From a virus: 64,000 bases of DNA. A program made the translations under genes and the position numbers. The stretch lies in the IMG/VR virus record IMGVR_UViG_3300020392_000004; one strand, written 5' to 3'. Position 1 is the stretch's first letter. Each line of letters opens with the position of its first letter. Below, in pieces: positions 12,537 through 30,580 of the stretch. Below the pieces are notes generated by a model that was not told where the DNA came from, searched no databases, and saw only the letters and a list, made by a program, of their open reading frames with translations.

Positions 12537-13433
12537 TTAACTAGAAATCGGAGTTCCAGGCCACTGTTGTTGTAATACACCGTCCCATCTTGGAACTGGT
12601 GTTCTTCCTTGTCTTGCGTAAGTGGTTGGATTCTGATTTGAATATGTAGTCGGTGTTTGACCCTGTCTAGCATAAGTCGAAGGACTTCTATGATTGTAAG
12701 TAAATGGTGTCTGACCTTGTCTTGCATAAGTTGTTGGGTTCTGATTTGCATAGGTAAAAGGAGTTCGTCCTGTTGCCTGATATGTTGAAGGTGACCTAAA
12801 GTTATATGTAAACGGTGTTTGACCTTGTCTCTCGTATGTTGACGGAGATTGATAATCATAAGTAGACGGTGTTTGACCCTGTCTTTCATAAGTTGAAGGA
12901 GACTGATAATCATATGTGAAAGGTGTTTGACCTGTTCTTTGATATGTTGAAGGTGACCTATAATCGTAAGTAGAAGGTTGCCTTGCGTCTCTTATGTTTG
13001 GTTCTTGTGCTGACCTAATGTTTGGTTCTTGTGCTGACCTAATGTTTGGTTCTTGAGCATTAGCAGGGTATGTAAATGGTTGTTGTCCTGACCTAATATT
13101 AGGCTCCTGTGCTGACACTGGGTTTCTGTAAGTGAAAGGTGACCTATGATGATATGTAAAAGGTTGTCTTGCTGGTGCTTGATATGTAAAGGGTGACCTA
13201 TAATGATATGTAAAAGGTTGTCTTGCTGGTGCCTGATAGGTGAATGGTGACCTATAATGATATGTAAATGGACTTCTAGCAGGTGCTTGATATGTAAACG
13301 GTGACCTATAGTTATAAGTGAATGGTTGTCTTGCACTTGCAATATATGGGTTTTGAGTTCCGTATGGGCTCTGATAACTTGCACCGACTGGTTGTCTTGC
13401 TTGAAATGTAAATGGACTCTGATAAAATGGCAT
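12537..13433 (-). CDS. Pro-anchored Q/P/Y/T/S/R repeat protein (zipper strand B)
   Basis: 31 units of 6-12 aa (e.g. PFTYHYRS, PSTYERQGQT, PNIRSAQE) over residues 7-278; start 2 nt after the upstream stop. Confidence 0.88.
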   Translation of the reverse strand: MPFYQSPFTFQARQPVGASYQSPYGTQNPYIASARQPFTYNYRSPFTYQAPARSPFTYHYRSPFTYQAPARQPFTYHYRSPFTYQAPARQPFTYHHRSPFTYRNPVSAQEPNIRSGQQPFTYPANAQEPNIRSAQEPNIRSAQEPNIRDARQPSTYDYRSPSTYQRTGQTPFTYDYQSPSTYERQGQTPSTYDYQSPSTYERQGQTPFTYNFRSPSTYQATGRTPFTYANQNPTTYARQGQTPFTYNHRSPSTYARQGQTPTTYSNQNPTTYARQGRTPVPRWDGVLQQQWPGTPISS

Positions 13434-14785
13434 AATTATCTCTTCTGCATGTTATGGACTACAAAGTCATTTGCAAAGAAGTTAGCATTATCACTTACAC
13501 GAGTCAAGTGATAGACCTCATGTTCTCCTTCCAGTTTGTTAATATTTGATATTTTTGCAGTTGATTGATTGTTTAAAATCAATGATAATGAATCTACAAG
13601 AATATCCCCCTCTTCAATTAGGCCAGAGATTTCTCCACCCCAAGCTGCACCCATGGCAACTTCTTTTTCCCAATCTTCCATGTTTATGACACACCAACCT
13701 TTATCTTGAATCAACATTGGGTGTCCACCAGTCACACCAGTAATCTTACCGTTGACTTCTATATCATATAATTCACATACTCTAGGTTGCATAATTTCTT
13801 CGACCACTCCAACTTCTAGTGTATCTCCTAGTGTCATGACTGACATACCAATCTCTATAGACTCGATAGGTCTGTATGTATTGTCTCCCATCCATATCAT
13901 AGTTCCCATTGCGAAACAACCGTGTCCAGTAGGTAAGCCTGGTGAACCACCGCCTGGGTAGTAAACTGGTTGTCTTGCTTGACCGATATATGGACTCTGA
14001 TATGAGAACGGAACTGGTTGTCTTGCACTGCCCGGCTGTCGTGCATGATAGGTAAATGGGTTTTGAGCAGACCTAATGTTTGGTTGCTGAATATTCGCAG
14101 GATATGTAATTGGTTGTTGAGCAGACCTAATGTTTGGTTGCTGAATATTCGCAGGATATGTAAATGGATTCTGTCCATTCCTGATATTCGGTTGTTGAAT
14201 ATTTGCTGGATATGTAAATGGATTCTGTCCATTCCTGATATTAGGCTCCTGTGCTGACACTGGGTTTCTGTATGTAAACGGTGACCTATAGTTATATGTA
14301 AATGGACTCCTTGCTGATGCTTGATAAGTGAACGGAGACCTGTAGTTATATGTAAACGGTGACCTATGATTGTATGTAAAAGGTGACCTATGGTCGTATG
14401 TGAACGGATTCTGTCTGTTCCTTATATTCGGTTCCTGTGCATTTGCAATGTAAGGATATGGCTGTTGTGCATTTCTGATATTAGGTTCCTGTGCATTTGC
14501 CTGATAAGGATAAGGAGTTTGTTTATTCCTTATGTTTGGTTCTTGAGCATTTGCAATGTAAGGATATGGTTGTTGTGCGTCCCTAATGTTTGGTTCCTGT
14601 GCATTTGCAATATACGGATAAGGTTGTTGTGCATTTGCAATATAAGGTGACCCACCGTTTGCAATATAAGGATAAGGTTGTTGTGCGTCTCTTATATTTG
14701 GTTCTTGAGCATTTGCAATGTATGGATATGGATTCTGTGCATTTGCAATGTATGGAGAACCACCCTGTGCAATATATGGGTAAGG
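12600..14785 (-). repeat. Coding tandem repeats (24/30/54-bp periodicity) in the two repeat genes
   Basis: Degenerate 54-bp units; a 35-bp identical segment is shared by the two genes at 13096-13130 and 14238-14272. Confidence 0.9.
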
Positions 14786-14947
14786 TTGTTGTGTTGCCTC
14801 TTGACCTGAAGCATTATTCCACCCGCCTGGAGCTTTGATATAAATTTGGTCAACTGCTTTCCAAGTAGACGGGCCTGTCTTGACCCATGCACCTTGAGTT
14901 GCATTCCAACCTGATGGGGTTTTAACTTTCTGTGAACCTGACGCCAT
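13436..14947 (-). CDS. Pro-anchored repeat protein (zipper strand A) with N-terminal Trp-rich adaptor and C-terminal Hint domain
   Basis: N-term KVKTPSGW/WVKTGPSTW/IYIKAPGGW; 31 repeat units over residues 55-326; Hint domain G|CFAMGTMIWMGD...VTGGHP...VYHL...NFFANDFVVHN. Confidence 0.9.
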   Translation of the reverse strand: MASGSQKVKTPSGWNATQGAWVKTGPSTWKAVDQIYIKAPGGWNNASGQEATQQPYPYIAQGGSPYIANAQNPYPYIANAQEPNIRDAQQPYPYIANGGSPYIANAQQPYPYIANAQEPNIRDAQQPYPYIANAQEPNIRNKQTPYPYQANAQEPNIRNAQQPYPYIANAQEPNIRNRQNPFTYDHRSPFTYNHRSPFTYNYRSPFTYQASARSPFTYNYRSPFTYRNPVSAQEPNIRNGQNPFTYPANIQQPNIRNGQNPFTYPANIQQPNIRSAQQPITYPANIQQPNIRSAQNPFTYHARQPGSARQPVPFSYQSPYIGQARQPVYYPGGGSPGLPTGHGCFAMGTMIWMGDNTYRPIESIEIGMSVMTLGDTLEVGVVEEIMQPRVCELYDIEVNGKITGVTGGHPMLIQDKGWCVINMEDWEKEVAMGAAWGGEISGLIEEGDILVDSLSLILNNQSTAKISNINKLEGEHEVYHLTRVSDNANFFANDFVVHNMQKR

Positions 14948-14973: not shown

Positions 14974-17031
14974 TTAGGAGTATAGAATCCATAAATCACC
15001 AACTGCTCCGTCTGAACCCGTAGGTGCAGAAGTTGACTGATAAATGTTTCTTGCAGTTCCACCGTTATTTGTTGCATTCGTAATTGTGACTGCACCAGTA
15101 TTAACTGCACTTGGTGTAATTGTTAAATTACCTGTAGATGCACCTGTAAATGAACCTGTTCCAAATGTGATTGCATCTGCACTTTCGTCCCAACCAATAA
15201 ACACATTGTCTGAACTTCCTCTCTCAATGACTAAACCTGCGTCATTTGAAGGTGAACCTGATGTTCCATTTCCTAATTCTATCAATGCATCTGATATTGT
15301 TGTGTTGGTTGAACTAACTGTTGAAGTTGTTCCGTTAACTGTTAAGTTTCCTGAAAGTGTTAAGTTTCCAAATTGAACATTACTGTTTGTTGCAACTGCC
15401 TGACCGATACTAACTTCACCTGAACTGATTGAAACACCAGTTCCACCACTGATATGAGCTCTTACTTCTGAAGCACTTGGGCCAGTATATGTAATTACAC
15501 CTGTAGAGTTATTATATGCTAATCCACCGTCTCCACCTGAATCTGTGACCGATATCGCTTGTCTTGCATTTGCATCTGCATATTGTGTTATTGAAGTTGC
15601 AACTGTTAAAGTATTACTTGCATCGTCATATGTTGTTGTGATACCTGTTCCTTCTTGTATCAATGCATTTACTCTATCGTCAACTCTTTCGTTTGTAAAA
15701 TATAAATTAGAAGAACCTTCTGATAATGCATCTGTATTTGCAAGAACTGAACCACCCAATGAAGTTGCAGAACCACCAATTGTTATACTGGAGTTTGCTA
15801 ACATTGAATTTAAAATTACACCTGAACCGATTGAAAAGTCTAAAGTTCCGTCTCCGTCTTCGTATGTGACTGCAATACCAGTTTCAGTATTAGATGATAC
15901 CATTCCACCAACAATATCTTGAACTCTTTCAGTAGTCATATAGAGATTACTTGACCCTTCTCCGATATCGTCTGTATCTAATGTAAGTGTATTTCCTAAT
16001 GCAACTGTGTTTGAATTTAATGTAATTGAACTATTTGCAAGTTTTGCGTTTGCAATTGAACCAGCAAGTTTATCGTTTGCAATTGAACCTGCTAACATGG
16101 CATTTGTTATACCACTTGCTTTTACTTGAACTGTATCAGAATCTATCTCTAAAGAACTATCATCTACTTGAACATTAAGTGTGACATCTCCTGATGTTCC
16201 ACCACCTGTTAGACCATTACCAGCAACTACTGATTCTATGTCACCAGCGTCATTTGTAAATGATATAACACCAGTTGAACTATTGTATGATAAGTCACCA
16301 CTAGCACTGATTGCACTTCTTGCTCTTGCATTTGTAAAATATTGATTTGTTGAACCTTCTGTTAGTGAATCTGTGTTCTCTGCACCACCGAGTATAACTG
16401 AATTACCCATTCCACTGTGGTTTGAACAATAGAAATACATAGGGTTATTTGATTCTTGGTCAAATGCAACTTCTGTATATGAACCACTTGAGCCTGGAGT
16501 TCCTACTTTATTATAAATTGAATAACCGTCTGTCATTTCTGAACCGTCTGCTGATTCAGAGAATCTTAATGGGTGTGAAGCGTTTGAACTATCTGACTGG
16601 TCAAATCTATAAACTACATTTGGAGTTAGTCTTAAAGGTTGTGAGGACGATTGACCGTCAAATGCATACTTATTACCACCGTCACTTATAACTGTGACAA
16701 CTACTCTATGATAATAAGGTGCAGTAGTATTGTTTAGTTGTTGTTCTACATCTAGTGTGACGGTTCCACTGGTTCCACCACCATCTAGGTTTGTTCCAGC
16801 TGTGACTCCTGTTATATCTCCAACTTGACCGTTGATAGTAAGAGTTCCAGCAGAATCATCATATGATAATGATACTCCTGTTCCAGCTGTTAGTAAAGAA
16901 TTTACTTGGTCGTCTATCTTTTCTAGGGCTGCAGTTCCGAATGCAGCTGCAGTTAAATCACCTGAACTGTCTAATACTTCGGTATCCCCTACGGATAGAC
17001 CATTTTTAATTTTAAAGTTTACATCTGCCAT
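14974..17031 (-). CDS. Tail/virion fibre protein with cupredoxin-like domain
   Basis: G/S/T-rich; TDxLxEGSxNxYFTNARAR repeats; HPLRFS...YFYCSNHSGMG domain; C-terminal SAPTGSDGAVGDLW. Confidence 0.8.
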   Translation of the reverse strand: MADVNFKIKNGLSVGDTEVLDSSGDLTAAAFGTAALEKIDDQVNSLLTAGTGVSLSYDDSAGTLTINGQVGDITGVTAGTNLDGGGTSGTVTLDVEQQLNNTTAPYYHRVVVTVISDGGNKYAFDGQSSSQPLRLTPNVVYRFDQSDSSNASHPLRFSESADGSEMTDGYSIYNKVGTPGSSGSYTEVAFDQESNNPMYFYCSNHSGMGNSVILGGAENTDSLTEGSTNQYFTNARARSAISASGDLSYNSSTGVISFTNDAGDIESVVAGNGLTGGGTSGDVTLNVQVDDSSLEIDSDTVQVKASGITNAMLAGSIANDKLAGSIANAKLANSSITLNSNTVALGNTLTLDTDDIGEGSSNLYMTTERVQDIVGGMVSSNTETGIAVTYEDGDGTLDFSIGSGVILNSMLANSSITIGGSATSLGGSVLANTDALSEGSSNLYFTNERVDDRVNALIQEGTGITTTYDDASNTLTVATSITQYADANARQAISVTDSGGDGGLAYNNSTGVITYTGPSASEVRAHISGGTGVSISSGEVSIGQAVATNSNVQFGNLTLSGNLTVNGTTSTVSSTNTTISDALIELGNGTSGSPSNDAGLVIERGSSDNVFIGWDESADAITFGTGSFTGASTGNLTITPSAVNTGAVTITNATNNGGTARNIYQSTSAPTGSDGAVGDLWILYS

Positions 17032-20470: not shown

Positions 20471-20803
20471 TTACCTCGTCACGCCTGGGGTCACTGTTGC
20501 TTGTCCTTCGACAACTCTAGTCTTTTGACCACCTGAACTATTTATATTTAGGTCATATACATACCGACCTGCTTCTAAATTCGTAGTTTCAGAATCGGTC
20601 AAACTTAAAGTCACTTGTCCTGATGCAGCTGCAATACTTGTTGTGAATGTTGCAGATATTGCTGAAGAAGCATAAGTTTTTCTAATTTGTGCAGCTGCAG
20701 AATATCCCGTAAGATTTAATGCTGTCCCAGCTGCATCAGTCACATCTACTGTGATAGAAAAGTCTGTTCCTTGGTCAATGAATAAGTTTGCAATAATAGC
20801 CAT
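20471..20803 (-). CDS. Conserved virion adaptor protein (Ig/BppU-like fold)
   Basis: ANLFIDQGTDF...NLTGYSAAAQIRK...GRYVYDL...TRVVEG...VTPGVTR, a common T4-like structural family. Confidence 0.72.
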   Translation of the reverse strand: MAIIANLFIDQGTDFSITVDVTDAAGTALNLTGYSAAAQIRKTYASSAISATFTTSIAAASGQVTLSLTDSETTNLEAGRYVYDLNINSSGGQKTRVVEGQATVTPGVTR

Positions 20804-20823: not shown

Positions 20824-22419
20824 TTATCCCTCGCCAGAGATATATGGTGTTTGTCCACCGTCACCTTCACTTCCTTTTTGGAATTGTGCGTTTGGAACTG
20901 CTTGGTGTATCTTTTCTATACCTTGAGGTGCATGGACATATACCTCTTGTGCTTTTGCAACTACACCTTGGTTATTTACAAAGACACCTTTTACTTTTGC
21001 AACAGCTCCAACTGGTCTAGTTGTAGTGTATGGTTGTCTAGCAATATACGGAGAACTGTAAATATACGGTTGTGGTTGTTGGTGTATATAAGGAAATGGT
21101 TGTCTTCCTGTTGCACTACTCGTGACTTGTTGAGTTCTCTGAACAGAATATTGAGAAGGTGATTGATAATCATATGTAAAAGGACTTCTTGCATCTGCAA
21201 TATAAGGATATGGATTTTGTTTATCTCTTATATTAGGTTGTTGTATAGAAGCAGGATTATTATAAATCGAAGGTGATTGATAATCATATGTAAATGGTGT
21301 TTGACCTGTTCTTTGATATTCAGAAGGTGACTGATAATCATATGTGCTTGGTTGTTGGTATTGATATATTACTGGTTGTCTTGCATCCTTAATAGTTGGT
21401 TGTTGTCCCTGTCTTGCCTCTGCATATGGTGAGTTATATTCATATGTGCTTGGTGACCTATTTGGTTGTCGAGAAATATAAGGTTGTTGTGTTTCGAATG
21501 TTGGTGTTCTCCCCTGTCGAGAATATGTAAATGGTGACTGTGTCTGTGCTTGTGCTTGGCCTGGGATTTGGTAAGCGTGGTCTTCCCCTGAAAAGGGGTT
21601 AAAATAAAATGTTGTATTTTGAGCCTGTGTAATATATGGAACAGGTTGACCACCATTTGCAATATACGGATACGGATTTTGTGTCGATATTGCTTGAAAG
21701 GAACTTGGAGACCGTTTACTAGCATTTGGGATAGATGTTTGATATTGATATATGGCAAAGCCTGGAGAATCATCATCAAAGAAACGCCCTGGCGCCTGTG
21801 GAAACGGAGAAGATTGATAAGTTCCGAGATTCGGTTGTTGGTGTTGGTATATAACAGGATTTTGAACATTATGTGGTTGTGATACTCCCGCCTGTGCAAT
21901 TGGTCTCTGTGCATTAAAAGAAGATTGAACACTTGTTTGTTTGTTTCTAATTACTGGTTGTGTAAATTGTCCAATATAAGGAAATGGTGATTGATAATCA
22001 TATGTAAAAGGACTCTGTTTACTTACATCTTGTTTAGTAGTTTGTTTATTTCTTATATTCGGCTCTTGTGCGCTTGCAATATATGGATATGGTTGTTGTG
22101 CGCTTCTTATAAAAGGGTTCTGTCCTTGAGTTGAATTCTGATATGTAAACGGAGACTGATAATCATATGTGCTTGGTTGTTGACCCTGTCTTGCATATGT
22201 AAAAGGTTGTTGTGCGTCCTTAATAGTTGGTTGTTGATTCTGTGCTTGGTGGACATAGAAAGCAGGACTTTGGTAAATGAAAGGATATGGTTGTTGTCCT
22301 TGTCTATTTACTGAAACCTGTGTTATTCTTTGTGTTGTTTCAAAAGCTTGATATGCAACTTGACCCTGATAGGGTTGTTGGATTTGTGTCCCTTGATTTA
22401 TGTATATTTCATCAGCCAT
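20824..22419 (-). CDS. Pro-anchored repeat protein, internally mirror-symmetric
   Basis: Same unit vocabulary (PFTYDYQS, PNIRDKQN, PYPYIASAQE); C-terminal adaptor KGVFVNNQG/EVYVHAPQG. Confidence 0.88.
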   Translation of the reverse strand: MADEIYINQGTQIQQPYQGQVAYQAFETTQRITQVSVNRQGQQPYPFIYQSPAFYVHQAQNQQPTIKDAQQPFTYARQGQQPSTYDYQSPFTYQNSTQGQNPFIRSAQQPYPYIASAQEPNIRNKQTTKQDVSKQSPFTYDYQSPFPYIGQFTQPVIRNKQTSVQSSFNAQRPIAQAGVSQPHNVQNPVIYQHQQPNLGTYQSSPFPQAPGRFFDDDSPGFAIYQYQTSIPNASKRSPSSFQAISTQNPYPYIANGGQPVPYITQAQNTTFYFNPFSGEDHAYQIPGQAQAQTQSPFTYSRQGRTPTFETQQPYISRQPNRSPSTYEYNSPYAEARQGQQPTIKDARQPVIYQYQQPSTYDYQSPSEYQRTGQTPFTYDYQSPSIYNNPASIQQPNIRDKQNPYPYIADARSPFTYDYQSPSQYSVQRTQQVTSSATGRQPFPYIHQQPQPYIYSSPYIARQPYTTTRPVGAVAKVKGVFVNNQGVVAKAQEVYVHAPQGIEKIHQAVPNAQFQKGSEGDGGQTPYISGEG

Positions 22420-22420
22420 A

Positions 22421-23719
22421 TCATGTCACAAACCATAAGTGACCGACACTAGTTGACCCAACACCTGTCGGTGCAGAAGACACTACCTCATAATCTAATT
22501 CGACATCGTCACCATCGATTTTCACTCCGTTAGATGTATTTACACTGAATGAACCTGAACCACTTAATGCAAGTCCAGCTCCACCACTTAAGTATGATTG
22601 AACATCTGAATCACCATATTGTGCAGAACCATTTATAGTTAGGGTATTATTTGCATCGTTATATGACAAAGATATACCTGTTCCACCGATTAAACCTTCA
22701 CCACCTGTAGTAGTTCCTGATAGATAATCTAATACTCTCTCTCCTGTAAAATAGAGATTAGTTCCACCCTCTGTGACTGTATCCGAGGTTTGTTGATTAG
22801 TTGGAACATATTTACTTGAAGAAGAATTATATACTAATATCTGTCCGTCTGTTGGTGAAGTAGTATCAACATCACTTAAATCTGTTATTTGGTGATTTGT
22901 AATACTTGATACTGTTCCAGTCAATGCACCTGTTGAGGCGTCTAATACAACTGAACCACCATGTTTAACATCACCAGTAATATCACCAGTGACATTACCT
23001 GTTAAATTACCAACCAATGCACTAGAAGTTATAGAACTAAATCCTGTTCCCACTCCACCTGTTATTGTTGCAGTTCCGTCTGTTATAGAAGGTGATTCAA
23101 AAGTATGTCCTGTATCGATTTTAACATCACCATTAATGAAAGTATTACCTTCATTTTGAATTTGATATCCTGATTGTAATGAAGTGGCTGCAGTTAGAGT
23201 TCCATTTAGAATTACTCCTGCTGAATTAGTATTGTAGATTGTGTTCGAAGCAGTCTCGGTAAACTTACCTCCACCGCCACCACCGTCAGCAGCGACTCCA
23301 CTTTCAGAACCAGTGTATGAATATATTGTTATGACATCATTAGCACTTGTTGCAGCGTTTATTAGTAATCCACTATTAAAAACATCACCAGAGCTTATTG
23401 CAGAAAAACCTGCTGTTCCTGACCCACCCTCGATTAGGTGATTACCATTTAAGTAAACTTGTATTTTACCTTGTCTATATTTTAAAACATTTCCATTTTG
23501 GTCTGGCCCTGAAAAAGTCACCTGGCCTGCGGTTGCAACATATTCAAATTGTTGAAAGAAGAATGTTTTATCTTCGATTACATTTATTGCATCTACTATA
23601 GTATTTGGACTTTTTAATGAGCCTCTTAAACCTGTAAGGCTCCCCACTTCATTTACAAGTGTGTTGTATGAACCTCTAAATTCATTTAGAGTTTGATTTT
23701 CATTTATTGTATTAGCCAT
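22421..23719 (-). CDS. Fibre protein
   Basis: N-terminal helical attachment region, QVYLNG domain, GNLTGNVTGDITG repeats, LSDVD..DGQILVYN motif, C-terminal SAPTGVGSTSVGHLW. Confidence 0.75.
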   Translation of the reverse strand: MANTINENQTLNEFRGSYNTLVNEVGSLTGLRGSLKSPNTIVDAINVIEDKTFFFQQFEYVATAGQVTFSGPDQNGNVLKYRQGKIQVYLNGNHLIEGGSGTAGFSAISSGDVFNSGLLINAATSANDVITIYSYTGSESGVAADGGGGGGKFTETASNTIYNTNSAGVILNGTLTAATSLQSGYQIQNEGNTFINGDVKIDTGHTFESPSITDGTATITGGVGTGFSSITSSALVGNLTGNVTGDITGDVKHGGSVVLDASTGALTGTVSSITNHQITDLSDVDTTSPTDGQILVYNSSSSKYVPTNQQTSDTVTEGGTNLYFTGERVLDYLSGTTTGGEGLIGGTGISLSYNDANNTLTINGSAQYGDSDVQSYLSGGAGLALSGSGSFSVNTSNGVKIDGDDVELDYEVVSSAPTGVGSTSVGHLWFVT

Positions 23720-23921
23720 GTGTTTTCTCTATAAGTTCCTTCAATAAACCTTTTATATCACTCAATTCATCTTTTAGATTATTTATGTCTTCTCTCTGAT
23801 TTCTCATAATTTGTCTTCTTCTCATTGTAAGACGATATTGTTCAACATCAGTATTAATGATTGCATGAGACTCTTCGTCTCTAACTAAATGTGAATGTCC
23901 TTCTACTTTTAAATCTGCCAT
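23712..23921 (-). CDS. Conserved small T4-like hypothetical protein
   Basis: KVEGHSHLVRDEESHAIINTD followed by a coiled coil; translationally coupled to both neighbours. Confidence 0.75.
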   Translation of the reverse strand: MADLKVEGHSHLVRDEESHAIINTDVEQYRLTMRRRQIMRNQREDINNLKDELSDIKGLLKELIEKTHG

Positions 23922-26900
23922 TATGCTAATGCCATGACTCTCAATGCAGATACCATTGGAACTACACTAGAGTTTTGACCTTGTCCTACAATTTTAATTA
24001 TGAAAGAAGAGAACTCTGGCAAGTCATTTACGGTATATTCATATTCCTTAAAGTTTCTTGCATCATTCTCAACTGCACTATCGGGTGAACCATCTGTATT
24101 AAAGAATTCAAATCCTATATCGTCAAGTGGTGTTTGTTCGTCACTCTTGACAATTTTAAACATATACTTCAATTCAGTTGTCGGTGGTCTAAAGTTATCT
24201 GCAATCACCTTGAGTGAAGTAGCTGGATTTTTAAGGTTTACCTTTCTTGTCACATAGATAAATGCATTTTGGTCACCTTCGGGTTCTGTTGAAGGTATAT
24301 GTGTAATATCTGATGGTAATGACACCGTCACTCCGTCAACTTTCTTACCACTTTGATTATCTATGTTATTAATTCTATTTGATATTGCAATACAACCAAT
24401 CGTTCCAACATCTATCACTGGTGATACATTTGGATTTCTTGACAACATTTGAGTTATCAATCTGAATGACCTTTGTGATTGCATTTTATTTGTTTCGTTA
24501 ACCACTGAAGCAACTATGCCTGGAGCGTCTAGGAATGTATTATCATTCAGTGTTATAAAGTTGTTTGTTGTTCTTCTATTGTAAACTGTATCTCCTGAAC
24601 TTATGAATCCTTCTGGCGATTTCATTGCAGTTGTATTGATACTTGATACTACTTTACAACTTCCAACTTGTGTAGAAGGTATCATAGTATGTAATGAATC
24701 AAAGATATAGTTTCTAGATACTTGGACTGATGAACCACCACCTGTTGTTGTTTCTAATGCAGTATAACCACTTACAAATTTACTTTTATCTATAAAACTA
24801 GTTAGATTACATGCAACATTGAATGAATCAATACCTATATTTGCAACACCATTAGTTGAGGAGTCTCCAAATGTTGTATTGATTGCAGCGACTGGGATAC
24901 CTCCTAGTGTATCACCGATTGCCACCACTGTGATTGTTAAGTCTGCTGTTCCACCGTCAAAGTTATCGAATGTGACTGTATTACCGACTGCATATCCTTG
25001 GCCTGGATTTACAATTCTTATACCATTTGTTGTCCCTATTGCACCACTTGCTATCTCTACATTTATTATCATACCTGTTCCACTTCCATCTGTGGAATCA
25101 GCAGTTTGTGCGTTATGATTACCGTCACTTGGTGTCTCTGATAAACTTGGACTTCCTACTTCTAATACAGAACCTACTCTATCTCCGACTACTCCTGATA
25201 TTTGAACATTTGAACTTTCGTCATATAATCCATGATTGTATGCAGAAACTTTCACATTATTACTACTTACAGTTGTTAATAATGGATTTTTTCCTAATGT
25301 ATCTAATTCAAGGTCTTTATTTTCAAAATGTATAGCAGGAATTTTAGTAGTATCAAACTTACATATCTTCATAGTAAATTTCATATCATCTGTTTGTTCT
25401 GCTGTCCATGTTGAAGCATTCTGTGATAAGAATAATGAACCTGCGTATGGTTGACCTGATATCTGTTGTCCTGAAGCTAAATCAGTTTCACCCATTCTTG
25501 ATATCCATTGTTCATATTCATTTGAGTTTGAGTAAACAATCAATGCATATTCTTTCTTCTCTTCAACATAAACTGGTGATTCGAATGAGAATGTTGTTGC
25601 AACTGTTCCGTCAGCAGATATATTAACATCACTTGGATTCTTTGTGACTGTTGAGAAAGGTAATACTATTTGGCCTGGATATCCATTTACCATGTTTCTA
25701 ATTTCAACTGAAACTGGCATGTGTGTATCTTTTGCTTGGAAGAATACATCTACGGAAGATATAAACATTCCTCCACTTGCCTCACATAAGAATGATTGTG
25801 CAAGTGGGTCACCCCAACCTCTTTCTAACCTAGAACCAATTCTAAATTCTAATTCAGGTGGTAAAGGTGGAACTGGTATTGCTGGTGGTTCTGGCACCTC
25901 TATTGGGAATACAATTACTGGGTCTGCCACAATAGGTTCAGGTATCGGTATAGTATCGACTGGAATATCGGGTGCAATCGTATCGGTTGGAGATATGTTT
26001 AATCTTTCACCTCTTCTTTGTATCTGTCTCTCACCCTCTGTTAATTGTGATATAACTCTTCCATTCCTTGTTGAAACAATTTCTGTTTGTGAACTTGACA
26101 ATAATCCTTGAGCTTGGTATACTGCTGAACCTGAACTTGGTGGATTAGATAAGTTATGGAATGAAGAGGTTAACTTTAATTCTCTTTGTCCTGTAGGGAA
26201 TCTTTGAGTTTCAGTATTTGGTAATTCAAAGAACCCTCTCAATCTTCCATTACCGTCTGATTTAAGATTTGAAGAGACTGTAGTTCCACCGTCCTGTGAA
26301 TATGCAGTTGATTGTGGTCTCACAAACTTATCTACTCTGATTCCGTCAAAGAAGAAGTAATGGTTTGTATTTGGTTTTAAGTTTGTTGCATCTATCTCAA
26401 TAGTTCTTGCCCTCATGAAAGGGATAATTGCAACTGATACTATTCTATCGTTTCTTGTTTCTACAAAATCTTCTACAACACTTGTAGTGATACCTGTTCT
26501 AGTTTGTATCTCGGGTGACTCTGTAATTTCTCTAGTGACTTCTTGACCCGCTTGCCATTCACCACCTTGAGCTGGGTCACCTGACCATGAACCTGCTGTA
26601 GTTGATTGAACTTCTGATTCAACTGATGAAGGTTCTCCAACCCATGTTGTTTGCCATGAGTTCCAAACTGTTCCTAAAGAGTTTCCAACTCCTGACATAA
26701 CAGCGTCAAAGTTTCCTTCTCTATTAACTCTAACATCGGGTAATCTTTCTGTATCGTTCCATATGTCGGTGCCTGGCGTTAATTTAACATTACCGATAAA
26801 TGCAAAGACATGATATGGGTTAACATTAATATGTCTTGAAGCTTTATCTTGATTAATATAATTTACTTCTGTAAATGGTAGAGTAATCAAGTCACCAGTC

Positions 26901-29900
26901 TGTTGATAGTTCGTTGAATTTGTTGTATCTAAATTCAAATCAAAGAACTGTTGCATATTTTGAGGTCTTAACATACCCATTTTTGTATCGATAGAACATT
27001 TATAATCGGGGTGGTTAACATCACCAATCTTATGTCCTCTAAAGTTATCGACCAAGAATCCTGACTTGAATCTATCGAATCCGTCTGCATCTAATACCTG
27101 TGCAGATTGTGTATCTTTTTCTAATAGAGATAGGGAAGTGACTCTTTCTAGGTTTGTGACTCTTTTATTAATACGACCTATGTCTTTCATGGTGTATCGT
27201 CTATGGTCAAAACTTCTAACTTTAATCTCTGATAATTTTTTTGTAAATGCTGGTATGAACAATTCAAACATTTCTATTGAATCGTCAATTGCTTTAGGTC
27301 TAGTTGGTGATAATGACGGGATACCTGTTGATATTTCAAATAGTCCGTCTTTACCAAGATAGATTCTATCTATTCTAGAAGTATAGAATTCTATATCTCC
27401 AACTGTTGCACCACCCTTCATAGGTGTGTCTAAAGCAGCTGCACCTGCTCCTGTAAATACTTTGTTTTCATATTTGAATGGGTCACCACTTAATCCACTT
27501 GATATGTTTGCTGGACTACTTGGGTCGGGATTTGCAGAAGAGAAGTTTGCATCTGAAAATAATTGTGCAACTGTTGGTCTATAATCGACTGCATCTGATA
27601 GTTCGTATTCACCATCAGGTTCTAATCCACCCATATCTATTCTGTTCGGTGAGTAAACTGGTATTTCTTTATAGTCTAAACCTGCGTCTGTATATGAATT
27701 TACATCATAAAACTCTCCACCATTTGAAGTGAAGTTATCGAAGACTATGAGAATTGAATTGTTTGGTGTAGGTTCACCAGGCTTCAGTGTAATTTTTGCA
27801 ATATCATAGAAACCATCTCTCTGACCATTGTCAAAGAAATATCTTTGTGTGATATTATCTGACCCTGTTGTTATTAGGTCTATATCTGCAGCTGCATTTG
27901 TTATTTGACCTACACATGTTTCTCCGTCTGTAAAGACAAAGTCATTTAAGTAATAGAAAAATGTTGACCCTGAATTTGCATATTTAACAATTCTTGCTTG
28001 GGCACCTGATGTTTGACCTATGATTACTTCGTCTTTTACAAAGTCTGTTCCTGTATAAGAAGCACCACCTAATCTTCCACTTGGAGGTAAAGGTGTAGAA
28101 CCACCGATACCTTCATAGACTGCTCTAACTGATAATACATCTGCAACACCTAATGTTATGTCTTTGTTATCATAACATGTTCCGTAATCTGAAGCACCTG
28201 CTACAAATGCAGTATCTACTATTGCACAACGAGACCTATTTAATACTTTGTTTCTATGTTCAGGTGAATCGTCAATAACTGTAAATGATACTAGATATTT
28301 TACTCCGTCTGAAGCAGTAGTATCGAACTGAATCGATTGACCACCACCACCGAGGTTAGATGCAGTTGGAGGTGAACTTGCAAAATCTATCTCTGCACCT
28401 AATACATTTCCTCCACCTGTATTACCGTCAGTATTTAAAATTGATAACTGGAAATTATCTCTATCTACTGTAGAGAAGGTTTCACCTGCTCCAGTTGTGA
28501 TTGTGACCTTACCACCTGAAGCTGCAATCACTTTTTGTCTTCTTATTGATATTCTATCAGGTGTATGTTTTTTTACATAATCTCTTGGCCATGCATATAT
28601 TGCTACTGCTTGGTCTTGGTCAAATAGTTTGACTCTCCTTCTTGTTGCAGAAGGGTTGACATCAAATGCTGTGACACTACTTGTTGCAACTGTTTGAGCT
28701 GTGACTGAATCTGTGACGGTAGAAATTACTTGTTCGTCACCATTACCATCGATAATGATATCACCCTCTTTAAGTTCAGCAGTAAATCTTGTTCCAAAAC
28801 CAGTGATATTACCATTGGCTGCAATTGATACACTTCCTGTTAATGTGTTATCACCGTCTGCAACTGCATCTGCTGTAAAGTCTGCATCACCTGAACCACT
28901 TCTTTCTTGTCCTATACCTCTAACTCTGTCTATGTTAAATGTTCTAACTTGGTTTGCAATACCTCTAAAGTTTTCTCCGACTACAGTGAATGTTGCAGTT
29001 CCGTCACCTTCTGATGTAATTGTCTCACCATGCACGAATGTTCCTACAACATCATGAACATACATATTTACACCGTTGACATGACCTACGATACCTGTTG
29101 CACCTGATGTTCCACCGATAACTCTATCACCAACATTTGAATTTGATATTGAGCTACCAGCTTTTAATTTAGTGAACATTTTTATATCAAAGAGATATAA
29201 ACCTGTGTTATCGTTTGTGGCTCCAAAGTTGTCTATATGTCTAACTCTTGCAAAACCAATATGGTCTTCACTGTTTAGTGTTCCTGCTACTGCTGTGATA
29301 CTTGGGAATAATTTACATATTGCATATGGTGTGATTGCACTTGCACCACTCTCATTACCAAAATCGGGAAACCCAAAACCATTTTTGACTTTTATGAATT
29401 GTCCTAATCTTGTTGGAGTATTTGCAGTATTTAATGTGACTGTTTGTCTTGCTTTGTTTATGTTTAGATTGGAAGTTCCAATTTTATCTATCTCATATCC
29501 CTTAACATATGCCTTTCCTGGCGATACTTGGAATACAAATTTTTCTTCTTTACCACCTTGTGCTTTGAGATAGAATCCTCTGTTTGTTGAATCGTCTAAA
29601 TGTTCTCTTAAACTATGTGTAAACTGATTGACTATGAAATCACCGTTTGCATCGAAAGTTCTTCGTGCAAGAGTGTTTTCAATCTCTGTATACATAGGTC
29701 GATTAGTATGAAGTTCAATCTGACCTTTGTTAACTCTAACTAACTCTATGAAGTTTGCATCTTCTGTGGAAGTTAAATCATATTTGGAAAGAGTTAATGT
29801 AAACTTGAGTCTATCAGCACCAGCTGCATTTTCATTTGAAGTTCCCTGTGCATTATCATAGAGAGAACTATCTTCTGCAACTGATATTAATTCTTCTTTT

Positions 29901-30580
29901 ATTGTAAGACCTATTCTATTTGAAGGTTTTGCATTGTATTTTTCTAGAATTAATTGTTGTTCGTCTACTTTTACAAAGAATCCTCTACAAAATACTACAC
30001 CCTCTGATATATTTGCAATAGAAGTTCTTCCAACTGGAGTTGTTGAAGCAGCTGCTACTTTAAAATCATTATTACTTGCTGTATCTTCTGCTACTGTTCC
30101 ACTTGAATCGAATCCACACTTAACTAAAGTTTCGTCTCCAGCGAATGAGAATGAGTTGTTTGCATCTGTTCCTTGTCTTTCTAATCGAACATATAGAGTA
30201 ATGAAATCTGTTGAGGTTTCTGCATCTGAATTGATAACTTTTGCAACGACACCTGTTGTTTGTCCTTTTATAAACTGACCATGGTAAGAAGTTCTGTATG
30301 ATTCTACTGCAGCGTCACCACTTGAATTAGGGTTTGCAGCTAAAACTTTTACATAATATAAATCAAAGTCAATATCTGACTGGGCTCCTGTGACGATGGA
30401 ACCTTCTTTGAAGAAATGGTCACCGAATCTTTCTATTTGATTCTGTAATACAGATTGTGATTGTGTTAGTTCCCTTGCTTGTAAGGGACGACCAGCTCTG
30501 TATAACAGTTTATGAAACTGTTTTGATTCCGAATAATCATCGTAATAGGGTGATATGTTTAAATCAGTCTTTTCTGCCAT
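23921..30580 (-). CDS. Large baseplate-associated structural protein (DUF4815/VrlC-like)
   Basis: LNISPYYDDY, GRPLQARELTQ.Q, AGADRLK, RRYTMKDIG, RFKSGFLVDNF, DPLAQSF, GSLFLSQNASTW; 2219 aa. Confidence 0.88.
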   Translation of the reverse strand: MAEKTDLNISPYYDDYSESKQFHKLLYRAGRPLQARELTQSQSVLQNQIERFGDHFFKEGSIVTGAQSDIDFDLYYVKVLAANPNSSGDAAVESYRTSYHGQFIKGQTTGVVAKVINSDAETSTDFITLYVRLERQGTDANNSFSFAGDETLVKCGFDSSGTVAEDTASNNDFKVAAASTTPVGRTSIANISEGVVFCRGFFVKVDEQQLILEKYNAKPSNRIGLTIKEELISVAEDSSLYDNAQGTSNENAAGADRLKFTLTLSKYDLTSTEDANFIELVRVNKGQIELHTNRPMYTEIENTLARRTFDANGDFIVNQFTHSLREHLDDSTNRGFYLKAQGGKEEKFVFQVSPGKAYVKGYEIDKIGTSNLNINKARQTVTLNTANTPTRLGQFIKVKNGFGFPDFGNESGASAITPYAICKLFPSITAVAGTLNSEDHIGFARVRHIDNFGATNDNTGLYLFDIKMFTKLKAGSSISNSNVGDRVIGGTSGATGIVGHVNGVNMYVHDVVGTFVHGETITSEGDGTATFTVVGENFRGIANQVRTFNIDRVRGIGQERSGSGDADFTADAVADGDNTLTGSVSIAANGNITGFGTRFTAELKEGDIIIDGNGDEQVISTVTDSVTAQTVATSSVTAFDVNPSATRRRVKLFDQDQAVAIYAWPRDYVKKHTPDRISIRRQKVIAASGGKVTITTGAGETFSTVDRDNFQLSILNTDGNTGGGNVLGAEIDFASSPPTASNLGGGGQSIQFDTTASDGVKYLVSFTVIDDSPEHRNKVLNRSRCAIVDTAFVAGASDYGTCYDNKDITLGVADVLSVRAVYEGIGGSTPLPPSGRLGGASYTGTDFVKDEVIIGQTSGAQARIVKYANSGSTFFYYLNDFVFTDGETCVGQITNAAADIDLITTGSDNITQRYFFDNGQRDGFYDIAKITLKPGEPTPNNSILIVFDNFTSNGGEFYDVNSYTDAGLDYKEIPVYSPNRIDMGGLEPDGEYELSDAVDYRPTVAQLFSDANFSSANPDPSSPANISSGLSGDPFKYENKVFTGAGAAALDTPMKGGATVGDIEFYTSRIDRIYLGKDGLFEISTGIPSLSPTRPKAIDDSIEMFELFIPAFTKKLSEIKVRSFDHRRYTMKDIGRINKRVTNLERVTSLSLLEKDTQSAQVLDADGFDRFKSGFLVDNFRGHKIGDVNHPDYKCSIDTKMGMLRPQNMQQFFDLNLDTTNSTNYQQTGDLITLPFTEVNYINQDKASRHINVNPYHVFAFIGNVKLTPGTDIWNDTERLPDVRVNREGNFDAVMSGVGNSLGTVWNSWQTTWVGEPSSVESEVQSTTAGSWSGDPAQGGEWQAGQEVTREITESPEIQTRTGITTSVVEDFVETRNDRIVSVAIIPFMRARTIEIDATNLKPNTNHYFFFDGIRVDKFVRPQSTAYSQDGGTTVSSNLKSDGNGRLRGFFELPNTETQRFPTGQRELKLTSSFHNLSNPPSSGSAVYQAQGLLSSSQTEIVSTRNGRVISQLTEGERQIQRRGERLNISPTDTIAPDIPVDTIPIPEPIVADPVIVFPIEVPEPPAIPVPPLPPELEFRIGSRLERGWGDPLAQSFLCEASGGMFISSVDVFFQAKDTHMPVSVEIRNMVNGYPGQIVLPFSTVTKNPSDVNISADGTVATTFSFESPVYVEEKKEYALIVYSNSNEYEQWISRMGETDLASGQQISGQPYAGSLFLSQNASTWTAEQTDDMKFTMKICKFDTTKIPAIHFENKDLELDTLGKNPLLTTVSSNNVKVSAYNHGLYDESSNVQISGVVGDRVGSVLEVGSPSLSETPSDGNHNAQTADSTDGSGTGMIINVEIASGAIGTTNGIRIVNPGQGYAVGNTVTFDNFDGGTADLTITVVAIGDTLGGIPVAAINTTFGDSSTNGVANIGIDSFNVACNLTSFIDKSKFVSGYTALETTTGGGSSVQVSRNYIFDSLHTMIPSTQVGSCKVVSSINTTAMKSPEGFISSGDTVYNRRTTNNFITLNDNTFLDAPGIVASVVNETNKMQSQRSFRLITQMLSRNPNVSPVIDVGTIGCIAISNRINNIDNQSGKKVDGVTVSLPSDITHIPSTEPEGDQNAFIYVTRKVNLKNPATSLKVIADNFRPPTTELKYMFKIVKSDEQTPLDDIGFEFFNTDGSPDSAVENDARNFKEYEYTVNDLPEFSSFIIKIVGQGQNSSVVPMVSALRVMALA

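What the first reader, a model, noticed from the sequence alone, without database searches (positions are those of the whole stretch)
20824..22419. Third repeat protein obeys the same code intramolecularly: a long, branched protein hairpin
Seen: N-half units read forward match C-half units read backward in length and type: PTIKDAQQ/PFTYDYQS, PFTYARQGQQ/PYPYIADARS, PSTYDYQS/PNIRDKQN, 12-mer/12-mer, PFIRSAQQ/PFTYDYQS, PYPYIASAQE/PSEYQRTGQT, PNIRNKQT/PSTYDYQS, one irregular 9/8 pair, PFTYDYQS/PTIKDARQ, PFPYIGQFTQ/PYAEARQGQQ, PVIRNKQT/PSTYEYNS. Inside this stem a nested pair (PYPYIANGGQ/PFTYSRQGRT) closes a loop containing FYFNPFSGEDHAY. A second, less regular arm is centred on PGRFFDDDSPGF. This independently supports the code derived from the A/B pair. 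Inference: a Y-shaped, RNA-like stem-and-branch fold with two aromatic/acidic tips that could bind a receptor or surface.
Basis: partly seen in the sequence, partly recalled or inferred. Interest (0 to 1): 0.9.

Follow-up and report, generated by a model that had tools for sequence, protein, structure and literature searches.

The report
Self-zipping hairpin phage fibre protein
A 531-residue protein in the tail-fibre region of an uncultured marine T4-like phage is built so that its first half, read forwards, matches its second half, read backwards, repeat for complementary repeat; it therefore most likely folds back on itself into a long thin fibre, a design not described before.

Summary
Observation confirmed. 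ORF 20824-22419 (minus strand, P0001) has an N-arm (aa 64-162) and a C-arm (aa 323-420) made of proline-started units. Read in opposite directions they match in length and are complementary in type in 10 of 11 pairs (PNIR-type with PFTYDY-type, PYPYIA-type with RQGQ-type, 12 with 12). The register i+j=484/485 extends to the conserved termini (16 with 468). Shuffling types within their slots reaches this score in 23 of 4000 trials. No DNA palindrome explains it.

Homologues support arm pairing:
- The distances from each terminus to a conserved central hairpin covary (r=0.86, 11 subfamilies). One homologue carries +45 aa in both arms.
- Other phages encode the same hairpin as two adjacent genes, with a perfect mirror over 336 aa.

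The gene lies in the host-recognition cluster, next to an LtfC-like fibre-assembly gene.

Interpretation partly supported. Antiparallel fold-back is well supported by comparison. AlphaFold2 predicts only the apex hairpin (267-286) and leaves the arms unmodelled. The RNA-like Y branch, the monomeric state and receptor binding are unproven. The closest known analogue is the T4 gp37 needle, but P0001 is not a member of that family.

The scan had already noted two-gene mirror pairs on other DNA. This is the single-chain form.

The parts
20824..22419 (-). Whole ORF P0001, 531 aa plus stop. Hairpin ('C-type') fibre protein, translationally coupled to the upstream fibre gene (stop TGA, then one base, then ATG).
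   Evidence: 417 homologues in marine metagenomes; no Pfam or PHROG family
22375..22419 (-). N-terminal base module, aa 1-15 (MADEIYINQGTQIQQ). About 135 family proteins share it, with various C-termini.
21934..22374 (-). N-arm, aa 16-162. The regular stem is aa 64-162 (window 21934-22230), units K R D T K Y K x D Y K.
21454..21933 (-). Central tip region, aa 163-322. Holds the N-side surplus of about 70 aa, including the tip-1 motif PGRFFDDDSPGF (aa 210-221, window 21757-21792), and the nested stem-loop.
21505..21675 (-). Nested stem-loop, aa 249-305. Y unit 249-258 faces R unit 296-305. Inside them is the AlphaFold2-confident beta hairpin 267-274/279-286 (window 21562-21621), with the family-conserved turn NPFSGED.
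21016..21453 (-). C-arm, aa 323-468. The regular stem is aa 323-420 (window 21160-21453), units D R K D D R D T K Y D.
20827..21015 (-). C-terminal base module, aa 469-531 (AKVKGVFVN...EVYV...EKIHQ). Predicted small beta sheet 480-506, pLDDT about 80.
   Evidence: the same module ends the separate C-arm proteins of L006 and L007
20471..20803 (-). Downstream neighbour, 110 aa. LtfC-like 'L-shaped tail fiber protein assembly' protein. It keeps this place next to the hairpin gene in all related loci examined.
   Evidence: phrog_3304 E=2e-25; weak Pfam LtfC
22421..23719 (-). Upstream neighbour, 432-aa fibre-like protein ending ...LDYEVVSSAPTGVGSTSVGHLWFVT. A homologue with the same C-terminal motif precedes every hairpin or N-arm gene examined.

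Best explanation
P0001 is a structural fibre protein of the host-recognition (tail-fibre) cluster of a T4-like marine myophage. The chain runs out along the N-arm (aa 16-162), forms a distal tip from the central ~160 aa, and returns along the C-arm (aa 323-468). The two arms lie side by side, antiparallel and in exact register, each proline-started unit facing a unit of equal length and complementary type: PNIR/PTIK with PxTYDY (basic opposite acidic), PYPYIA with PxTYxRQGQx, and 12-mer with 12-mer. Both termini (MADEIYIN... and ...AKVKGVFVN..EVYV..EKIHQ) then meet at the virion-proximal base. The aperiodic order of complementary units acts like a barcode: it fixes the register and the partner in an otherwise slippery repeat, so arm length can change only by matched changes in both arms. 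Unit lengths are almost always even, which points to extended beta conformation. The assembled fibre is probably an oligomer of such hairpins, as in the T4 gp37 needle, rather than a free monomer. Shown: the mirror-complementary sequence, its conservation, the covariation of the arms, the existence of split two-gene forms, and the gene context. Inferred: physical pairing, beta structure, oligomeric state, attachment to the virion, and a receptor-binding tip.
For: - Mirror complementarity in 10 of 11 unit pairs, register i+j=484/485 out to both terminal motifs, p about 0.006 under a slot-preserving shuffle. 6 opposite-charge and 0 like-charge pairs.
- Over 37 hairpin-type homologues aligned only by their terminal anchors, opposite charges outnumber like charges 66:6 at register 0. 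Most other registers give mixed or reversed ratios (17-56 opposite, 5-90 like); only register 0 combines the highest opposite count with a near-lowest like count.
- Distances from the N anchor and from the C anchor to the conserved apex motif covary (r=0.86, n=11 subfamily representatives, p=7e-4). P0010 has +45 aa in both arms relative to P0001. The N-side surplus is 52-76 aa in 10 of the 11 representatives (30 aa in P0013).
- Subfamilies that replaced the 8/10-mers did so in both arms at mirrored places. P0037 has seven 7-mers facing seven 7-mers. P0104 has six SEYQ 4-mers facing five PVRQ 4-mers at offsets about 91-114 against 91-110.
- Permuting C-arms among 12 representatives lowers the unit-length match (178 against 115 +/- 20, p=0.004).
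- The same N-terminal and C-terminal modules occur on two separate adjacent genes in other phages, and their arms mirror each other. L006 has 36 coincident boundaries with no indel over 336 aa. L007 shows the same with two 1-aa steps.
- The window's A/B pair (31 units) and the L001 pair (26 units in a different order) are exact mirrors.
- AlphaFold2 places its only confident intra-repeat element, a beta hairpin at 267-286, at the predicted apex.
- 395 of 434 units have even length.
- Context: conserved order gp8, VrlC/DUF4815, 69 aa, fibre, hairpin, LtfC-like. This is the 'host recognition cluster' of pelagimyophages (PMC7029224).
- No DNA-level palindrome.
Against: - AlphaFold2 with 44 homologues gives pLDDT 30-40 and no secondary structure for either arm, so no predicted or solved structure shows the pairing.
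- A proline every 8-12 residues would interrupt a continuous beta ladder. With the exact mirror register the two prolines at each boundary sit diagonally, which costs a hydrogen bond.
- If the arms formed one flat ribbon, the aromatic face would flip between K-D and D-K pairs.
- Exceptions exist. P0009 lacks the four outermost C-arm units that its N-arm keeps. P0013 has an N-side surplus of only 30 aa.
- Much of the mirror pattern is inherited within the family, so homologues are not independent trials. The arm-length correlation is not phylogenetically corrected.
- No proteomic or imaging evidence shows that the protein is in virions. Cultured relatives (HTVC008M, Melnitz) carry other fibre genes at this place.
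Confidence: 0.6

Rival explanations
1. A monomeric, RNA-like Y-shaped fold: one long stem plus two short arms, each ending in an acidic/aromatic tip (PGRFFDDDSPGF and FYFNPFSGEDHAY) that binds a receptor.
For: The main stem and the nested stem-loop are supported as above. The N side carries a surplus of conserved size, 52-76 aa in 10 of 11 subfamily representatives. Acidic/aromatic/Gly-rich motifs recur at the tip-1 position in homologues. P0048 carries two near-identical copies of a tip motif, PVNIP[NS]GGYFGGP[LI]AYRS.
Against: Residues 163-248 show no regular unit complementarity around 210-221, and AlphaFold2 gives pLDDT 35-40 there. In the split forms the equivalent position is a globular beta-sandwich head attached to the N-arm chain, so the surplus may be a small head rather than a second hairpin arm. 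Nothing bears on the monomeric state. Phage fibres are usually trimers.
Confidence: 0.15
2. The arms pair between chains, not within one. The N-arm of one molecule zips onto the C-arm of another (antiparallel dimer or open-ended polymer), giving rods or networks with base modules at both ends.
For: The two-gene forms prove that pairing needs no covalent link between the arms. Sequence complementarity alone cannot tell intra-chain from inter-chain pairing.
Against: The split forms place both base modules at one end and the head at the other, and the single-chain form reproduces this only by folding back. The conserved, AlphaFold2-confident hairpin lies at the symmetry centre of the nested pair. 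Closing a hairpin within one chain is favoured over pairing between chains.
Confidence: 0.1
3. The arms do not touch each other. Both track a third, periodic scaffold, for example by running up and down the trimeric fibre encoded by the upstream gene, and that scaffold imposes the mirrored unit lengths.
For: A fibre gene with a conserved C-terminal motif always precedes the hairpin gene or the N-arm gene. Such a scaffold would explain mirrored lengths.
Against: It does not explain why unit types are complementary rather than identical. It also does not explain why basic residues sit exactly opposite acidic ones. The upstream fibres differ in length (399-540 aa) without relation to arm length.
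Confidence: 0.07
4. No defined pairing. The protein is a disordered or amyloid-like Q/P/Y-rich low-complexity protein, or a parallel solenoid or trimer. On this view the mirror pattern is a by-product of how the repeats were duplicated, plus chance.
For: AlphaFold2 leaves the arms unstructured. The composition (Q 19%, P 12%, Y 12%) resembles prion-like and glutenin-like repeats. The same phage group carries curli-type secretion genes (PMC7029224).
Against: Direct duplication gives parallel, same-type repeats, not antiparallel complementary ones, and no DNA palindrome is present. The exact mirrors of 26-33 units in four separate gene pairs, and the matched indels, are not expected without a constraint. 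P0001 has no signal peptide-like N-terminus and no Curlin or other Pfam match. The gene sits among fibre genes.
Confidence: 0.06

Closest known systems
Needle (domains D10-D11) of the phage T4 long tail fibre tip, gp37
   Same: A fibre in which each chain runs from a proximal knob to the distal tip, turns back, and returns. N and C termini lie at the same end and the receptor-binding residues lie at the turn (PMC9603124; iron sites in PMC6957217). Gene context is also similar: a T4-like tail-fibre region with a fibre-assembly gene next door.
   Different: There is no sequence or Pfam relation. P0001 has no HxH iron-binding motifs. Its arms are 147 aa, and up to 336 aa in split forms, far longer than the D11 insert of gp37 (residues 882-1019 for both strands and the tip; PMC9603124). 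P0001 has proline-delimited units with a two-letter complement code. It also exists as two separate genes. The trimeric state is unknown here.
Mirror-complementary two-gene fibre pairs of the same phage group
   Same: Same unit vocabulary and same pairing rules (K with D, Y with R, 12 with 12). Units of even length. Exact mirror of lengths. Same genomic cluster.
   Different: P0001 carries both arms on one chain, joined by a 160-aa tip region with a conserved apex hairpin. It uses the Nc/Cc base modules rather than the B-type N-terminus and A-type C-terminus, and it has no Hint domain.
Heterospecific coiled coils and the register-specific collagen heterotrimer (general knowledge)
   Same: Partner choice and register of a long fibrous repeat are set by complementary charged or hydrophobic positions in the repeat units.
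   Different: Those are helical and parallel, or short. Here the periodicity is 2 residues (even unit lengths), the units are 8-12 aa and proline-started, and the arrangement is antiparallel over hundreds of residues.

Membership tests
T4 gp37 needle / GxHxH tail-fibre tip | The chain goes to the tip and returns, so two antiparallel segments of one chain are co-extensive | tested here: met
   Met by sequence comparison only: mirror register i+j=484/485, arm-length covariation, and the apex hairpin predicted by AlphaFold2. No structure of the arms.
T4 gp37 needle / GxHxH tail-fibre tip | HxH motifs that coordinate iron along the needle axis | tested here: not met
   No H.H anywhere in P0001; only 7 His in 531 aa.
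T4 gp37 needle / GxHxH tail-fibre tip | Sequence or profile similarity to known tail-fibre families | tested here: not met
   No Pfam family at E<=0.01, no PHROG at E<=0.001, no tblastn hit in 50,697 phage records (the low-complexity filter was on).
T4 gp37 needle / GxHxH tail-fibre tip | Interwoven homotrimer (six-stranded needle) | not testable with these tools
Mirror-complementary fibre family (A/B-type zipper) | Proline-started units of even length drawn from the K, D, Y, R and 12-mer types | tested here: met
   395 of 434 units are even in 12 representatives.
Mirror-complementary fibre family (A/B-type zipper) | Antiparallel equality of unit lengths with K:D, Y:R and 12:12 complementarity | tested here: met
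   10 of 11 pairs in P0001. The same rule holds in A/B, L001, L006 and L007.
Mirror-complementary fibre family (A/B-type zipper) | Location in the fibre cluster downstream of VrlC/DUF4815 | tested here: met
   PMC7029224.
Curli (CsgA/CsgB) amyloid subunits | Sec signal peptide and Curlin repeat (Pfam Curlin_rpt) | tested here: not met
   The N-terminus MADEIYINQGTQIQQ has no hydrophobic stretch. No Pfam hit.
Parallel trimeric fibre shafts (triple beta-spiral, triple beta-helix) | In-register parallel chains, with identical repeats stacking on themselves | tested here: inconclusive
   The sequence favours antiparallel over parallel complementarity (score 19.5 against 7.5), but no structure was obtained.

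The most novel reading that the evidence does not exclude
These phages use a true protein pairing code. Short proline-started beta units come in complementary types (basic/aliphatic PNIR with acidic/aromatic PFTYDY, PYPYIA with RQGQ, 12 with 12). Their aperiodic order programs which chain segment zips onto which, and in what register, much as base order does in a nucleic-acid duplex. P0001 is the 'hairpin' form of this duplex and the neighbouring-gene pairs are the 'two-strand' form. Fibre length evolves by compensatory insertions and unit swaps in both arms. If so, this is a natural, sequence-addressable beta-duplex that could be read, predicted and re-designed from sequence alone.
Probability: 0.5. 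Interest if true: 0.9.

Novelty: categorically new. Interest (0 to 1): 0.8.

Why it matters
If the arms really zip together, this is a new way to build a long, thin protein fibre. Register and partner would be specified by a readable unit code. The design occurs in single-chain (hairpin) and two-chain versions, and it shows compensatory evolution of the kind normally used to prove RNA helices. That makes a structural hypothesis testable from sequence alone: swap one unit to break it, swap the partner unit to restore it. It offers a template for designing addressable beta-sheet nanofibres of set length. It also assigns a role to a widespread but unannotated gene family in the host-recognition cluster of abundant marine myophages (relatives of SAR11 and OM43 phages), where tail-fibre genes have been hard to identify (PMC7029224).

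Tried and rejected
- Complex prediction: N-terminal half (aa 1-172) against C-terminal half (aa 313-531), each with its alignment. Score 0.23, mark 0.32, no verdict. Not used as evidence either way.
- AlphaFold2 on the full protein with 44 homologues: arms unmodelled, so the model was not used for fold searches.
- tblastn of P0001 and of its non-repetitive C-terminal 69 aa against 50,697 phage records: no match. The cultured relatives HTVC008M and Melnitz have unrelated fibre genes at the syntenic place.
- DNA palindrome or antisense-translation artefact as the cause of the mirror: rejected. Only three inverted repeats of 17-23 nt are present.
- Curli-substrate idea: rejected. No signal peptide and no Curlin repeat; the gene lies among fibre genes.
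- AlphaFold2 of the split-form protein P0011, with VIA-align against PDB and Foldseek against BFVD. The head is a generic beta sandwich (best Z 5.0, FN3/Ig/CBM-like rows tied) and the repeats are again unmodelled. No specific receptor-binding fold could be named.
- ESM Atlas feature search: only unnamed viral clusters.
- No whole genome is held for this window.
- Unit-length dynamic programming between arms is blurred where a 12-mer has an internal proline in one arm only. The diagonal is the row maximum in only 4 of 12 rows, although the permutation test is significant.
- BLASTP of the C-terminal module against the N-terminus of protein B: weak (E=0.019 for the single comparison). A lead only.
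Full report
**What is there.** The finding is the ORF 20824-22419 on the minus strand (P0001, 531 aa). It starts one base after the stop codon of the upstream fibre-like gene. The protein is rich in Q (18%), P (11%) and Y (9%). Between two non-repetitive ends it consists of short units that each begin with proline.

The window is part of a T4-like marine myophage. The gp6 baseplate wedge homologue at 36897-38771 is about 41% identical to those of the OM43 phage Melnitz and the SAR11 phages Mosig and HTVC008M. P0001 lies a few genes downstream of the 2219-aa VrlC/DUF4815 gene. This is the region that Zaragoza-Solas et al. call the hypervariable 'host recognition cluster' of pelagimyophages, where the tail fibres lie (PMC7029224). 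The next gene (20471-20803) is an LtfC-like 'L-shaped tail fiber protein assembly' protein (phrog_3304, E=2e-25). P0001 itself matches no Pfam or PHROG family.

- A simple regex tokeniser gives K R D T K Y K x D Y K for aa 64-162 and D R K D D R D T K Y D for aa 323-420. Here K = PxI[RK]xxxx, D = PxxYxxxx, Y = PYPYIxxxxx, R = PxxxxxxG[QR]x and T = a 12-mer.
- Read antiparallel, 10 of 11 pairs are complementary (K:D, Y:R, T:T). The eleventh is the 9/8 pair.
- The sum of paired positions is constant: 484, then 485 after the 9/8 step. The same sum links the first residue after the N-terminal motif (P16) to the last residue before the C-terminal module (R468).
- In each of the six K/D pairs the basic residue lies exactly opposite the acidic one. 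No like charges face each other.
- When K/D and Y/R labels are shuffled only within their own slots, which keeps the 8-10-8 rhythm, 23 of 4000 shuffles reach the observed hairpin score (19.5 against 9.3 +/- 2.9). Parallel pairing scores 7.5.
- The gene contains only three short DNA inverted repeats of 17-23 nt. The mirror is therefore a property of the protein, not a nucleic-acid palindrome or an antisense-reading artefact.

**The code is real outside this protein.**
- The window's other two repeat proteins are A (P0002, 12537-13433) and B (P0003, 13436-14947). Each has 31 units, and the length series of B read N to C equals that of A read C to N exactly.
- A related phage (L001) has a B/A pair of 26 units in a different order. 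It is again an exact mirror with K:D and Y:R complementarity.

**Homologues of P0001.** There are 417 hits in marine metagenomes. About seven full-length clusters appear at 50% identity. Hairpin-type members share the N-terminal motif M-x-[DE]-E-I-Y-I-N...QQP and the C-terminal module ...TTR...AKVKGVFVN...EVYV...EKIHQ.

Thirty-seven of them were aligned only by these two anchors and their arms read in opposite directions. Opposite charges outnumber like charges 66:6 at register 0, the highest opposite count together with a near-lowest like count. Most other registers give mixed or reversed ratios.

A central motif (P0001 262-292, TTFYFNPFSGEDHAYQ) is conserved across the family. The distance from the N anchor to it and the distance from it to the C anchor covary (r=0.86 over 11 subfamily representatives, p=7e-4, not phylogenetically corrected).
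- P0010 has 45 more residues than P0001 in both arms (306/236 against 261/191).
- The N side is longer by 52-76 aa in 10 of the 11 representatives, mostly about 55 or about 70.

Subfamilies that replaced the 8/10-mers did so in both arms at mirrored positions. P0037 has seven 7-mers facing seven 7-mers. P0104 has (SEYQ)x6 facing (PVRQ)x5 at offsets about 91-114 and 91-110. Giving each N-arm the C-arm of another subfamily lowers the unit-length match (178 against 115 +/- 20 over 100,000 permutations, p=0.004).

**Split forms.** In L006 the syntenic place holds two genes.
- P0011 has the same N-terminal motif, a 336-aa N-arm and a roughly 200-aa beta-sandwich head.
- The next gene encodes 394 aa: six residues, a C-arm, and the same C-terminal module as P0001.
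- Anchored at the two modules, 36 unit boundaries coincide with no indel over 336 residues, against at most 24 in any other register. The types are complementary throughout, and an 18-mer 'long Y' unit faces a D+R pair.
- L007 shows the same arrangement with two 1-residue steps. Its N-arm protein carries a head plus a Hint domain.

P0001 is therefore the fused, single-chain version of a two-chain antiparallel shaft. The two conserved terminal modules form one end (the base). The head, which in P0001 is the central 160 aa, forms the other end.

**Structure prediction.** AlphaFold2 with 44 homologues gives mean pLDDT 40. Both arms are unmodelled. The only confident parts are a beta hairpin at 267-274/279-286 (pLDDT about 80) and a small beta sheet at 480-506. 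The hairpin has i+j=553, in register with the nested Y/R pair 249-258/296-305 (i+j=554). So the one anti-diagonal that is predicted sits exactly at the apex required by the code.

The low confidence elsewhere is not evidence of disorder. The alignment is shallow, repeats align poorly, and fibres usually need partners or oligomerisation.

**Most likely mechanism.** The arms lie side by side in an extended beta-like conformation. Evidence for this:
- 395 of 434 units in 12 representatives have an even length, which keeps a two-residue in/out rhythm across unit boundaries.
- Arm lengths match to the residue over hundreds of residues.

The complementary, aperiodic unit order would fix register and partner in a sequence that could otherwise slip. 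The base would dock to the virion or to the upstream fibre. That fibre's C-terminal motif ...LDYE.VSSAP..G.S.GH[LI]WFV precedes every hairpin or N-arm gene examined. The tip would carry the binding surface.

By analogy with the T4 gp37 needle, an oligomer of hairpins is at least as likely as a monomer. In that needle each chain of a trimer runs to the tip and turns back, with both termini at the knob (PMC9603124). An extended 147-residue arm would span roughly 40-50 nm. That figure is my estimate.

**Open points and counter-evidence.**
- Prolines every 8-12 residues and their diagonal placement would interrupt a continuous ladder.
- The aromatic face would flip between K-D and D-K pairs in a flat ribbon, so the real geometry is probably segmented or twisted.
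- P0009 lacks four outer C-arm units that its N-arm keeps, and P0013 has a smaller N-side surplus.
- The 'second arm' around PGRFFDDDSPGF has no regular complementarity and no prediction support. The conserved surplus may be a mini-head rather than an RNA-like branch. P0048 does carry two near-identical tip motifs.
- Intra-chain and inter-chain pairing cannot be told apart from sequence alone. The topology of the split forms and the conserved apex hairpin favour folding back.

**Comparison with known systems.** The T4 gp37 needle is the closest in topology, but P0001 is not a member of that family. It has no HxH motifs, no profile similarity, much longer arms, proline-started units with a complement code, and natural two-gene forms. 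I found no description of such a design in the papers searched. Earlier notes of this scan report two-gene mirror pairs on other DNA and reach the same closest analogue. I re-tested the rule here on independent loci.

**Verdict.** The fold-back reading is well supported by comparative sequence evidence but has no structural proof. The Y-shaped monomer and receptor binding remain hypotheses.

Noticed in passing
window 13436-14947 (-) and 12537-13433 (-): Proteins B (503 aa) and A (298 aa) have 31 repeat units each, and their length series are exact mirrors. B ends in a Hint/intein-like domain (weak Pfam hits; starts GCF, ends VVHN+MQKR) at the end where the N-terminus of A would lie.
   Followed up: partly
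L006 10001-11731 and 11731-12915; L007 2256-4001 and 4001-4816: Other phages encode the P0001 hairpin as two adjacent genes. One carries the N-terminal module, the N-arm and a globular head (plus a Hint domain in L007). The other carries the C-arm and the C-terminal module. The arms mirror each other over 336 aa without an indel (L006).
   Followed up: yes
window 22421-23719 (-), 14974-17031 (-); L001, L003, L006, L007 upstream genes: Every hairpin or N-arm gene is preceded by a fibre gene ending ...LDYE.VSSAP..G.S.GH[LI]WFV. Both B-type genes examined (window, L001) are preceded by one ending ...STSAP.G.DGAVGDLWILYS. This suggests a fixed docking partner.
   Followed up: partly
window 20471-20803 (-): A 110-aa LtfC-like 'L-shaped tail fiber protein assembly' homologue, conserved next to the hairpin gene and present in Synechococcus, Prochlorococcus, SAR11 and OM43 myophages (114 phage records).
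   Followed up: partly
P0009 (homologue, 446 aa): An exception to the mirror rule. It lacks the four outermost C-arm units (36 aa) that its close relative P0008 has, while keeping the matching N-arm units. This could be a repeat-collapse assembly artefact or a natural deletion.
   Followed up: no
P0048 (homologue fragment, 309 aa): Its central region holds two near-identical copies of PVNIP[NS]GGYFGGP[LI]AYRS, that is, two like tips in one hairpin protein.
   Followed up: no
window 23921-30580 (-): A 2219-aa VrlC/DUF4815 protein marks the start of the hypervariable host-recognition cluster. gp8- and gp7-like baseplate genes lie just upstream of it.
   Followed up: no
family-wide: About 135 proteins share the N-terminal M-x-[DE]-E-I-Y-I-N module and repeats. 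About 100 of them lack the hairpin-type C-terminal module: some carry a beta-sandwich head with a DGxDGDD motif or a Hint domain, and the C-termini of most (87) were not classified.
   Followed up: partly
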